Source: Promethearchaeota archaeon (lineage in GTDB: Archaea; Asgardarchaeota; Lokiarchaeia; Sigyniarchaeales; SOKP01). From it: a stretch of 48,182 nt of DNA. The notes below the pieces were generated by a model. That model made no database searches, was not told where the DNA came from, and was given only the letters and a program-made list of their open reading frames with translations. Every line of letters begins with the position of its first letter. Positions within the stretch are counted from its first letter, which is position 1. This document shows positions 3,089 through 4,495 of the stretch, piece after piece. Location: positions 1-48,182 of the forward strand of contig JBHLOI010000027.1 in the NCBI GenBank assembly GCA_048940645.1, read 5' to 3'. The translations under genes and the position numbers were made by a program.

Positions 3089-3276
3089 AATCTCCTTTAT
3101 ACTCAATGATAAGTTTTTAATAAAATTACCATAAATTTAATTTAAGATTAGTTTAGATTATTTTAAAAAAATAGGAATATTTTGCAATCAATAATCATTA
3201 TGATGTATTCCATCACAACTTTTTTAATTAAAAATTGCTTAATTAATTAGTCAAAATACCAAAATAAAATTTATAA

Positions 3277-3282
3277 AGGTGA
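3277..3282 (+). promoter_or_regulatory. Shine-Dalgarno site of pfk (AGGTGA)
   Basis: AGGTGA matches the archaeal anti-SD and lies 6 nt upstream of the ATA at 3289. Confidence 0.7.
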
Positions 3283-3288
3283 TTTTAT

Positions 3289-4495
3289 ATAGCTATTAAA
3301 AAGATTGGAATTTTAACGGGCGGCGGAGTCATGTTCAAGATTTTCCTTAACTGTCGTATACTGCCCTGGGTTAAATAGCGTAATTTATGGGATAATGTTA
3401 AAAGCTTATGATGCTGGGGTAGAGTGTGTAGGAATTCTTAAGGGCTGGAAAGGATTTATAGATAATGATACAATCCCTCTTAATATAGCCGAACATGATG
3501 ACTTACATACGGTAGGAGGAACAATTCTCTATACAAGTAGAACAAATCCTTTTAAAGGAATCACTTCAAAAGAAGAAAAAGCAAAAGAACTAGCAGCAAA
3601 GTTTAATGAATTAGCTATCGATGCCCTAATAGCTATCGGTGGAGTTTTAAAATAGTTTCTATTTTAAACTGAAGACGATACATTAGGGGTTGCGGATTCT
3701 TTGCACAAATTTGCCAAAGCAAAGGTTGTTGGTGTTCCAAAAACTATAGACAATGACCTTCTTGGAACACATTATACGTTTGGATTTTGGAGTGCTGTAC
3801 AGTTAGCTTCTAATACACTAGATAATCTAACAACAACTGCACATTCTCATCAAAGGGTGTTTGTAGTTGAAATAATGGGCAGAGATGCCGGCTTTCTTAC
3901 CATGTATAGTGGAATCTCTGCTGGTGCTGATATTATTTTAATCCCAGAGACTCCATTTGACTTTGAGAAAGATATTACTGATGTACTTAAAAAAAGAGCA
4001 ACTGCTGGTTATAAATATCATATTATTGCAATATCAGAAGGAGCATACCCTAACCTAAAGTCACTAGAGAGAGATTTTAAAACGATTTCTAAAGAAACTA
4101 TTGAAAAATTACCCAAAGATACATTTGGTAATCCATTATTAGCTAAATTAGGTATGTCTCAAATAATTGTTGATGAATTAAATTTACGAGAGGATTTGCA
4201 AAAAGAATTTAAAAGAAATGGAGTTGAATTTGAGTGCAGAAGCGTTGTTCTTGGTCATACTATGCGTGCTGGAACTCCTAATTCATTTGATAGAATATTA
4301 GGTCTAAGATTTGGATTAGCAGCTATGAAATTGGTATTAGAAGGCAAATTTGGGAATATGGTCTCATTACAAGGAAATCAAATTAAAGATGTACCTCTTT
4401 CTGAGGGAGTAAAAAAGAAATATATCACCGCGGAAAACGACAAAATGGAATTACGTGATTTATTAGTTAAAATAAGATACTTATCTAAACAATAG
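3289..4495 (+). CDS. pfkA: 6-phosphofructokinase (PfkA family, PPi-type signature), split by two introns; exons 3289-3328, 3360-3644, 3675-4495; 381 aa after splicing
   Basis: Joined exons read MAIKKIGILTGGGDCPGLNSVI...GGTILYTSR...ALIAIGGDDTLG...PKTIDND...VEIMGRDAG...LGHTMRAG. Exon total is 1146 nt (382 codons with stop). GGDD plus PKTIDND is the PPi-dependent signature. Confidence 0.92.
3329..3359 (+). other. Putative bulge-helix-bulge mRNA intron 1 (31 nt)
   Basis: Removal gives GGA G|AC TGC (GGGDC). Central helix GCGG(3323-26)/UCGU(3354-57), bulges AG^U and AU^A, internal intron hairpin, and exon-exon stem GGGCG/C(U)GCCC. Confidence 0.8.
3645..3674 (+). other. Putative bulge-helix-bulge mRNA intron 2 (30 nt, contains in-frame TAG)
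   Basis: Removal gives GGA G|AC GAT (GGDD). Exon stem UAUCG/CGAUA, central helix GUGG/CUGA, bulges AG^U and AG^A, perfect 10-bp intron stem 3646-55/3659-68. Confidence 0.85.

What the first reader, a model, noticed from the sequence alone, without database searches (positions are those of the whole stretch)
3289..4495. Phosphofructokinase gene with two miniature bulge-helix-bulge introns: candidate mRNA splicing in an Asgard archaeon
Seen in sequence: the PFK reading frame is broken only twice, by a 31-nt insert (3329-3359, frameshifting; unspliced translation stops at TAG 3376 after 29 codons) and a 30-nt insert (3645-3674, in-frame TAG at 3653). Removing both yields a 381-aa PFK with all catalytic motifs and no other lesion. 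Each insert pairs with its flanks as exon stem / 3-nt bulge / 4-bp helix / 3-nt bulge / intron stem. Established: archaeal tRNA splicing endonuclease (EndA) cuts after the second nucleotide of each BHB bulge and RtcB ligates. The classic protein-coding example is the single cbf5 intron of Crenarchaeota. Applying that rule gives the boundaries that restore GGGD and GGDD in both cases. Inference: this is a multi-intron mRNA for a central carbon enzyme in the lineage closest to eukaryotes. Gene callers would miss it, and splicing could act as an on/off control on glycolysis or gluconeogenesis. I cannot verify novelty without a literature search.
Basis: partly seen in the sequence, partly recalled or inferred. 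Interest (0 to 1): 0.97.

Follow-up and report, generated by a model that had tools for sequence, protein, structure and literature searches.

The report
Two tRNA-type mini-introns in Asgard PFK
The only phosphofructokinase gene of this Loki-type Asgard archaeon is broken by two 30-base inserts shaped like tRNA introns, and comparison with 85 related genes indicates that they are cut out of the messenger RNA, something the papers I could search report for only one other archaeal protein gene (cbf5).

Summary
The PFK frame (3289-4495, +) is broken only by a 31-nt insert (3329-3359) and a 30-nt insert (3645-3674). Removing both gives 381 codons with GGGDCPG and GGDD restored.

Among 86 distinct Loki-type (Promethearchaeota) PFK alleles, insert 1 is present in 18, insert 2 in 14 and both in 8, always at the same phase-1 position of an Asp codon. 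The exons are under equally strong purifying selection with or without inserts (dN/dS about 0.05). Exon 2, which cannot be translated without removing both inserts, is also constrained (0.08).

Both inserts form relaxed bulge-helix-bulge motifs whose cut sites give exactly the needed junctions. The helices are kept by compensatory changes, and full exon-exon complementarity is found almost only where the intron is present. The genome encodes a crenarchaeal-type alpha/beta EndA (specificity loop with its Lys/Arg kept) and RtcB.

The best reading is EndA/RtcB splicing of a two-intron pre-mRNA (about 0.8). No RNA data could be obtained.

The suggested glycolysis on/off switch is unsupported. The introns come and go among close relatives, and rnhB, S27ae and several GTPase genes of this genome also carry internal stops. 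Earlier reports of this scan describe similar mini-introns in other genes of this genome.

The parts
3276..3282 (+). Shine-Dalgarno-like AAGGTGA, 6 nt before the start position
   Evidence: Read from the sequence. The same AAGGTGA lies before the start position in L004, L046, L078 and L106.
3289..3328 (+). Exon 1: 13 codons plus the first base (G) of the Asp codon. The codon at the start position is ATA, not ATG/GTG/TTG.
   Evidence: ATG, TTG or GTG stands at the aligned position in most alleles. ATA stands there in L001, L031, L046 and L106.
3329..3359 (+). Intron 1, 31 nt, phase 1 within the Asp codon of GGGD. Left in, it shifts the frame.
   Evidence: It is present at this site in 18 of 86 distinct alleles.
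3318..3366 (+). BHB-like motif of intron 1: exon stem 3318-3322 with 3361/3362-3366, central helix 3323-3326 with 3354-3357, bulges 3327-3329 and 3358-3360, intron stem from 3330 with 3353.
   Evidence: 94% of cells paired, the central helix paired in 16/16 aligned alleles, 3 pairs with compensatory change; background frequency 9e-5.
3360..3644 (+). Exon 2, 285 nt (AC of the Asp codon, 94 codons, then the G of the next Asp codon).
   Evidence: Pfam PFK profile positions 11-100, E 1.6e-21. dN/dS is 0.083 among alleles that carry both introns.
3645..3674 (+). Intron 2, 30 nt, phase 1 within the first Asp codon of GGDD. It is in frame but carries TAG (3653) and TAA. Borders shifted by 1 or 2 nt to the left give the same product.
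   Evidence: It is present at this site, always 30 nt long, in 14 of 86 alleles.
3634..3680 (+). BHB-like motif of intron 2: exon stem 3634-3638 with 3676-3680, relaxed central helix 3639-3642 with 3669-3672, bulges 3643-3645 and 3673-3675, hairpin 3646-3655 with 3659-3668.
   Evidence: 88% of cells paired, exon stem 100%, one compensatory pair (A-U to G-C), and pair 3639/3672 never formed; background frequency 1.2e-5.
3675..4495 (+). Exon 3 (AC of the Asp codon, 272 codons, stop TAG at 4493-4495).
   Evidence: Pfam PFK profile positions 103-276, E 2.6e-54. NCBIfam TIGR02483 PFK_mixed positions 105-323 of 325.

Best explanation
The gene is a working, single-copy phosphofructokinase gene whose primary transcript carries two tRNA-type (bulge-helix-bulge) mini-introns. 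Each intron, together with about 10 nt of exon on either side, folds into an exon-exon stem, a 3-nt bulge, a 4-bp helix (the last 4 paired exon bases against the intron's 3' end), a second 3-nt bulge on the other strand, and an intron hairpin.

The heteromeric (alpha/beta) splicing endonuclease EndA cuts after the second base of each bulge: G3328^U3329 and U3359^A3360 for intron 1, G3644^U3645 and G3674^A3675 for intron 2. RtcB joins the exon ends. Only the doubly spliced mRNA encodes the 381-aa enzyme with GGGDCPG and GGDD restored. Unspliced RNA gives a 29-codon peptide.

Shown here: the anatomy, conservation, selection and covariation, and the presence of the enzymes. Inferred: the cleavage and ligation themselves.

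The introns behave as tolerated passengers that are gained and lost often within the genus, not as a dedicated switch.
For: 1. Exact anatomy and restoration of the family motifs.
2. The same inserts lie at the same sites in many independent MAG assemblies: intron 1 in 18 and intron 2 in 14 of 86 distinct alleles. The length is fixed at 31 nt (32 in one allele) and 30 nt.
3. No exon stop in any of 65 full alleles. dN/dS is 0.052 for intron-bearing pairs and 0.051 for intronless pairs. Exon 2 of the two-intron alleles gives 0.083.
4. The introns evolve more slowly than synonymous sites: 83% and 76% identity against 54% at third codon positions. The loops vary and the stems are kept.
5. Structure counts. 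Intron 1: central helix 100% paired, three pairs with changes on both sides, and slid controls fall to 31-54% paired. Intron 2: 88% paired against 33-44% when slid.
6. Two alleles (L012, L033) carry an unrelated intron sequence at site 1 that keeps the same BHB. L012 shows GUGG:CCAC in place of GCGG:UCGU.
7. Full exon-exon stem complementarity occurs in 16/18 intron-1 alleles against 3/67 without, and in 14/14 intron-2 alleles against 15/71 without. Independent contrasts on the tree go 9:1 and about 6:0 (p about 0.02-0.03). Extra identity among intron-bearing alleles is confined to about 25 nt around each site.
8. The background frequency of an equally good motif at a fixed position is 9e-5 and 1.2e-5.
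9. The genome has two EndA paralogues. One resembles the A. pernix alpha subunit (3P1Z_B, E 5e-34) and keeps the Tyr/His/Lys triad and K44/R46 of the Crenarchaea-specific loop, which confers broad specificity (PMC3241643). The other lacks the His. There is one RtcB.
10. Other genes of this genome are interrupted alike. rnhB has a 30-nt insert with TAA inside DEAGR|GP. S27ae and several small-GTPase genes have internal stops.
Against: - A scan of metagenome contigs for the spliced junction 2 found only unrelated PFKs. No full-length protein more than 92% identical is on record.
- Both motifs depart from the canonical BHB (a G.A mismatch in intron 2; an imperfect exon stem in intron 1), and ViennaRNA's minimum-energy folds do not draw a BHB.
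- RNAalifold prefers another register for intron 1, made possible by the GGC repeat. That register is broken in L033 and L012.
- A genome-wide scan for a BHB plus joined frames showed no excess over shifted controls, so the motif alone is not diagnostic.
- The window's allele has ATA at the start position, so its expression level is uncertain.
Confidence: 0.8

Rival explanations
1. The gene is a pseudogene or a decaying allele. The inserts are random or mobile DNA insertions that inactivate PFK in some lineages and are never removed.
For: The frame is broken twice. The start position holds ATA. Presence is patchy among relatives.
Against: dN/dS is 0.05, the same as in intronless alleles, and 0.083 for exon 2 in two-intron alleles. 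There is no further lesion in 65 alleles. The inserts are kept at exact length and site across synonymous divergence above 1. They are more conserved than synonymous sites and show compensatory changes. There is no other copy of either insert in the genome. PFK is single-copy with this query.
Confidence: 0.04
2. The inserts stay in the mRNA and the ribosome deals with them, by translational bypassing as in T4 gene 60, by frameshifting, or by stop read-through.
For: The inserts are short (30-31 nt) and structured, as bypassed gaps are. Transcription and translation are coupled in archaea.
Against: No matching take-off and landing codons flank either insert: GGA is followed by no GGA at the landing side. 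Intron 2 carries two in-frame stops in every variant, and read-through would put 10 residues into the GGDD catalytic loop. What is conserved is a BHB-shaped pairing with both exon flanks, which bypassing does not need.
Confidence: 0.03
3. The inserts are removed from the RNA by something other than EndA/RtcB, such as another endonuclease-ligase pair (Ire1/XBP1-like logic) or an unknown RNP. The BHB resemblance would then be secondary.
For: The motifs are relaxed. Minimum-energy folds give a 4x5 internal loop. Cleavage was not tested.
Against: The predicted EndA cut positions, after the second base of each 3-nt bulge, give exactly the required junctions at both introns and in all variants, including the two unrelated intron sequences at site 1. 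The genome encodes the EndA type known to accept relaxed motifs. cbf5 introns are also relaxed (PMC2738675).
Confidence: 0.08
4. The inserts are assembly or binning artefacts.
For: All the data are metagenome-assembled genomes. The raw reads were not examined.
Against: Inserts at the same sites, diverged in sequence, appear in MAGs from many independent studies and assemblers, with record prefixes JAEOSD, JBHL.., JBATUM, JABCSY, JAUW.., JAHLWS, JAGXNS and CAZ...
Confidence: 0.01

Closest known systems
BHB intron in the cbf5 (pseudouridine synthase) pre-mRNA of Desulfurococcales and Sulfolobales (Watanabe 2002; Yoshinari 2006; Yokobori 2009, PMC2738675)
   Same: A short intron sits inside an archaeal protein-coding sequence. 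[quoted passage not shown] The host has a hetero-oligomeric EndA. Presence among relatives is patchy, with inferred secondary loss. The intron must be removed for a functional protein.
   Different: cbf5 has a single intron in a single gene of Crenarchaeota, and its splicing was shown experimentally. Here there are two introns in one mRNA, in a central-carbon enzyme of Loki-type Asgard archaea. They turn over fast within one genus (at least 14 and 11 changes on the gene tree), two unrelated intron sequences occupy one site, and no RNA evidence exists yet.
Non-canonical tRNA introns of Thermoproteales and of Asgard archaea (PMC11291895; bioRxiv 10.64898/2026.10.13.758758)
   Same: The same size range, the same BHB or relaxed-BHB logic with half of the motif made of exon sequence, the same enzymes, and many gains and losses.
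   Different: Those introns sit in tRNA genes. Neither paper reports introns in protein-coding genes: the preprint holds the word 'protein-coding' once, for neighbouring genes, and no 'mRNA'. Here the exon half of the motif is made from codons (Gly-Gly-Asp), which fixes synonymous sites.
Unconventional cytoplasmic splicing of XBP1/HAC1 mRNA by Ire1 and a tRNA ligase (RtcB in animals); from my own knowledge
   Same: A protein endonuclease cuts a small structured intron out of an mRNA. A tRNA-type ligase joins the exons, and removing a roughly 26-nt intron restores the productive frame.
   Different: Ire1 is unrelated to EndA and recognises twin stem-loops, not a BHB. That splicing is a regulated stress switch, and nothing here indicates regulation.
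Translational bypassing of the 50-nt gap in phage T4 gene 60; from my own knowledge
   Same: A short structured insert with stop codons lies inside an otherwise intact, selected reading frame.
   Different: Bypassing needs matching take-off and landing codons and a stop right after take-off. Neither is present here.

Membership tests
Archaeal BHB (EndA-dependent) intron | [quoted passage not shown] | tested here: inconclusive
   Intron 1 has both 3-nt bulges and a 4-bp helix (two G-U and two G-C/C-G pairs), paired in 16/16 alleles. Intron 2 has both bulges, but one of the four helix positions (3639/3672) is a mismatch in all 13 alleles. Both are therefore relaxed motifs, as described for cbf5 and for non-canonical tRNA introns.
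Archaeal BHB (EndA-dependent) intron | Flanking helices on both sides (exon-exon stem and intron stem) | tested here: met
   The intron 2 exon stem of 5 bp is invariant and its hairpin is 7-10 bp. The intron 1 exon stem of 5 bp has one bulged base, and its intron stem begins with two pairs that show compensatory change.
Archaeal BHB (EndA-dependent) intron | Cuts after the second base of each bulge give a precise, functional exon junction | tested here: met
   Applying the rule gives GGA G|AC at both sites and restores GGGDCPG and GGDD, identical to intronless orthologues. This is an in-silico test only.
Archaeal BHB (EndA-dependent) intron | Structure maintained in evolution (covariation; constraint on the exon halves) | tested here: met
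   One caveat: the GGC repeat allows an alternative register for intron 1, which fails in L012 and L033.
Archaeal BHB (EndA-dependent) intron | The host encodes EndA and an RtcB-type ligase | tested here: met
   PF01974 is found twice (103.5 and 70.1 bits) and PF01139 once (568.9 bits). The alpha-like copy keeps the catalytic Tyr/His/Lys and the CSL K44/R46.
Archaeal BHB (EndA-dependent) intron | Excision and exon ligation observed in RNA | not testable with these tools
The junction scan of metagenome contigs returned only unrelated PFKs.
Phosphofructokinase family (Pfam PF00365; NCBIfam TIGR02483 PFK_mixed) | Profile match over the whole domain, above the curated cut-off | tested here: met
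   Exon 2 scores 77.4 bits (profile 11-100) and exon 3 scores 184.9 bits (profile 103-276), against a cut-off of 30.9. The TIGR02483 pieces cover 11-103 and 105-323 of 325, but each piece alone is below that model's whole-protein cut-off.
Phosphofructokinase family (Pfam PF00365; NCBIfam TIGR02483 PFK_mixed) | Catalytic and substrate motifs GGDxPGxN, GGDD/GGDG, PxTIDND and MGR | tested here: met
   After removal of the inserts the sequence reads TGGGDCPGLN, AIGGDDTLG, VPKTIDNDL and EIMGRDAG. Asp after GGD and Lys in PKTIDND are, from my own knowledge, the signature of PPi-dependent enzymes. The phosphoryl donor was not tested.

The most novel reading that the evidence does not exclude
These mini-introns may be an active, mobile population in Loki-type Asgard archaea. 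On this reading they enter mRNAs (and tRNAs) again and again at sites whose exon sequence can supply the outer half of a BHB, and are later lost precisely.

Points in favour:
- both PFK introns sit in the same 9-mer, GGYGGAG^AC;
- site 1 holds at least two unrelated intron sequences;
- presence needs at least 14 and 11 changes on the gene tree.

This would be an ongoing intron gain-and-loss cycle in protein-coding genes of the prokaryotic lineage closest to eukaryotes, carried out with tRNA-splicing enzymes only.
Probability: 0.3. Interest if true: 0.9.

Novelty: new variant of a known kind. Interest (0 to 1): 0.8.

Why it matters
In the papers I could search, introns inside archaeal protein-coding sequences rest on one gene, cbf5 of Crenarchaeota. 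This would be different in four ways:
- A two-intron mRNA for a core metabolic enzyme in Asgard archaea, and with the other interrupted genes of this genome, evidence that protein-gene splicing by the tRNA machinery is routine in this lineage.
- Exon codons constrained by RNA structure.
- A natural series of alleles with no intron, one intron or both, ideal for testing gain, loss and cost.
- Public annotations of these genomes that systematically truncate such genes: the 357-aa and 265-aa 'PFKs' in the protein collection.

It bears on how interrupted genes were tolerated before the spliceosome existed. It does not show any link to spliceosomal introns.

Tried and rejected
- Spliced or intronless twin in protein space: among 498 relatives at E<=1e-100 (best 120 listed) there was no full-length protein more than 92% identical. 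Lengths of 357 and 265 aa mark truncated calls of intron-bearing alleles.
- An exact scan of metagenome contigs for the spliced junction 2 gave 25 hits, all unrelated PFKs at 45% identity or less.
- A genome-wide scan for a BHB plus joined reading frames gave 1705 candidates against 1603-1791 in shifted controls, with no excess at any threshold. The rigid rule also misses intron 1, so it is useless as a census, and the other candidates in the window look like gene borders.
- Intron copies elsewhere in the genome: none.
- Rfam: no match in 3150-3800. There is no tRNA gene in the window.
- L039 looked like a different intron position but is a run of N.
- Minimum-energy folding of single sequences does not show the BHB, and intron 1 has z = -0.1 to -0.5.
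- Considered and rejected: pseudogene, bypassing or read-through, assembly artefact, MITE-like insertion, and a split protein (the exon 1 peptide is 13 aa).

Full report
**What is in the sequence**

On the + strand the PFK frame falls into three open pieces.
- 3283-3378 reads ...IGILTGGG, then runs out of frame to TAG at 3376.
- 3317-3655 reads CPGLNSV...AIGG, then runs to TAG at 3653.
- 3668-4495 reads DDTLG... to the stop.

Pfam PFK covers profile positions 11-100 on exon 2 and 103-276 on exon 3. NCBIfam's best model is TIGR02483 (PFK_mixed), covering 11-103 and 105-323 of 325. Taking out 3329-3359 (31 nt) and 3645-3674 (30 nt) leaves 40 + 285 + 818 nt, which is 381 codons, and restores TGGGDCPGLN and AIGGDDTLG. 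Both inserts split an Asp codon after its first base (G|AC), and both lie in the same context, GGYGGAG^AC.

**Whose genome it is**

The closest PFK loci come from MAGs mostly titled Promethearchaeota or Promethearchaeia, some under other Asgard or other names (Hodarchaeota, Hermodarchaeota and others). The window's assembly is 3.83 Mb in 126 contigs and 89.6% complete. It holds one PFK match with this query.

**Comparative picture**

From 40 related genomes and 80 further loci I obtained 86 distinct alleles. Intron 1 is present in 18, intron 2 in 14 and both in 8. The six alleles from the other families of the order have neither.

The site never moves. Intron 2 is always 30 nt. Intron 1 is 31 nt, or 32 nt in L012. 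Sixteen intron-1 copies form one sequence family. L012 and L033 carry quite different sequences at the same site.

On a tree built from exon 2 and exon 3 with the junction-proximal codons removed, intron 1 needs at least 14 changes of state and intron 2 at least 11. Close relatives therefore differ in having none, one or both.

**Not a pseudogene**

None of 65 full-length alleles has a stop inside an exon. Median pairwise dN/dS is 0.052 for intron-bearing alleles and 0.051 for intronless ones, at dS of about 1.8. Exon 2 cannot be read in two-intron alleles unless both inserts are removed, and there it has dN/dS of 0.083, against 0.059 in intronless alleles.

The introns themselves are more conserved than synonymous sites: 83% and 76% identity, against 54% at third codon positions in the same pairs. 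The variation is concentrated in the hairpin loops.

**The RNA structure**

Both inserts fit the tRNA-like arrangement of a bulge-helix-bulge. An exon-exon stem comes first. Next is a 3-nt bulge holding the 3' splice site. Then comes a 4-bp helix between the last paired exon bases and the 3' end of the intron. After that is a 3-nt bulge holding the 5' splice site (A G ^ N). An intron hairpin closes the motif.

For intron 1:
- The central helix is paired in 16 of 16 distinct alleles.
- Overall 94% of cells pair, against 31-54% when the partners are slid.
- Three pairs show changes on both sides.
- L012 has GUGG:CCAC where the window has GCGG:UCGU.
- Both L012 and L033 switch the first two intron-stem pairs from C-G, A-U to U-A, U-A.
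- The exon stem needs a bulged U3362 or a 4-nt 3' bulge.

RNAalifold proposes another register, which the GGCGGCGG repeat makes possible. That register is broken in L012 and L033, while the BHB register is not.

For intron 2:
- 88% of cells pair, against 33-44% when slid.
- The 5-bp exon stem is invariant.
- One hairpin pair changes from A-U to G-C.
- The helix position next to the 3' bulge (G3639/A3672) never pairs.

Both are relaxed BHBs. Single-sequence minimum-energy folds do not draw them.

**Is the fit chance?**

The borders are fixed by protein homology, not by the fold. In this genome a motif at least as good, at one fixed position and length, occurs at 9e-5 (intron 1 grade) and 1.2e-5 (intron 2 grade) of positions. 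The motif alone is still not diagnostic genome-wide. A scan for a BHB plus joined frames gave no excess over shifted controls.

**Exon constraint tied to the intron**

- Full 5/5 complementarity of the exon-exon stem is found in 16/18 alleles with intron 1 and in 3/67 without it.
- It is found in 14/14 alleles with intron 2 and in 15/71 without it.
- Phylogenetically independent contrasts go 9:1 and about 6:0 in the expected direction (p about 0.02-0.03).
- Extra identity among distantly related intron-bearing alleles is limited to about 25 nt around each site (0.94 against 0.79, and 0.89 against 0.78), with none further away.

This is what a structural requirement on the exon half of a BHB predicts. 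It argues against long co-conversion tracts.

**Enzymes**

The genome has two EndA paralogues and one RtcB. One EndA (201 aa) aligns end to end with the A. pernix alpha subunit (3P1Z_B, E 4.9e-34). It keeps Tyr125, His133 and the Lys of the triad, and also K44 and R46 of the Crenarchaea-specific loop. That loop confers broad substrate specificity, and K44 is needed for activity (PMC3241643). The other paralogue (205 aa) lacks the catalytic His, as expected of a structural beta subunit. This is the enzyme type linked to relaxed motifs and to the cbf5 mRNA intron (PMC2738675).

**Most likely mechanism**

The pre-mRNA folds locally, EndA cuts the four bonds, and RtcB joins the exons and probably circularises the introns. 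Only the doubly spliced mRNA encodes PFK. Shown: anatomy, selection, covariation and enzymes. Inferred: cleavage and ligation.

The rivals fit poorly:
- Ribosomal bypassing lacks take-off and landing codons.
- Read-through would put 10 residues into the catalytic loop and has two stops to pass.
- A MITE-like element has no other copy in the genome.
- An assembly artefact is excluded by the many independent assemblies.

**The switch idea**

Nothing supports regulated splicing. Close relatives do without either intron, and other genes of the same genome are interrupted alike:
- rnhB has a 30-nt in-frame insert with TAA between DEAGR and GP, with a similar fold.
- The only S27ae match has an internal TGA.
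- Several small-GTPase genes have internal stops.

Earlier reports of this scan describe mini-introns in dnaG, S27ae, rnhB, a phosphatase and a Rag-like GTPase of this genome. I checked rnhB directly and S27ae and the GTPases only for internal stops.

**Novelty**

Searches of the held literature found protein-coding BHB introns only for cbf5. For Asgard archaea they found only tRNA introns. A two-intron archaeal mRNA, and mRNA introns in Asgard archaea, were not found in those papers. Subscription journals are largely outside that library.

**Limits**

- There are no RNA data.
- All genomes are MAGs.
- The gene tree is a quick one, and recombination among alleles is likely. Several intron-1 alleles from distant clades share the AAGGTGA leader. 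The counts of gains and losses are therefore minimum numbers on a gene tree, not events on a species tree.

Noticed in passing
window 3289-3291; also L031, L046, L106 (ATA) and L101, L104 (ACG): At the aligned start position the window's PFK has ATA instead of ATG/TTG/GTG. It lies 6 nt after AAGGTGA, and an in-frame TGA just upstream means no canonical start is possible. ATA recurs in three separate lineages, all carrying intron 1 (4 of 18 alleles with intron 1 against 0 of 67 without). ACG occurs in two intronless alleles. This suggests near-cognate initiation, or a link between a weak start and an intron only 40 nt downstream.
   Followed up: partly
L114:1121-1150 (G000 C86), + strand: The only RNase HII gene of the genome has a 30-nt in-frame insert with TAA between DEAGR and GPV. 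It can form a 4-bp central helix (UGGU:GCUG), an AG^A 5' bulge, a 6-bp intron hairpin and a GC-rich exon stem.
   Followed up: partly
L115 (G000 C88:49914-50015, -); G000 C52:78127-78594, C24:52594-53121, C9:8592-9101, C15:14341-14868: The single S27ae match has an internal TGA. Four of 39 small-GTPase (Gtr1/RagA-profile) matches have one or two internal stops. These are possible further mini-introns.
   Followed up: no
L012:1182-1213 and L033:1183-1213: Two alleles carry an intron at site 1 whose sequence is unrelated to the main family (about one third identical) but keeps the same BHB. This suggests a second gain or a replacement at the same site.
   Followed up: partly
proteins P0001, P0004, P0005, P0049 and others: Public protein sets hold many Loki-type 'PFKs' of 357 aa (cut at intron 1) and 265 aa (cut at intron 2), beside intact ones of 382-384 aa. 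Gene callers truncate the intron-bearing alleles.
   Followed up: partly
L111:1453-2058 (-) and L112:1423-2040 (-): There are two EndA paralogues. One has the full catalytic triad and a Crenarchaea-type specificity loop (SKPR aligned to EKPR, K44/R46). The other has no catalytic His. Together this points to an alpha/beta heterotetramer in a Loki-type Asgard archaeon.
   Followed up: partly
window 3641-3646 and 3677-3700 (protein motifs GGDD, PKTIDND): Asp after GGD and Lys in PKTIDND are, from my own knowledge, signatures of PPi-dependent (reversible) phosphofructokinases, while public records name these proteins ATP-dependent.
   Followed up: no
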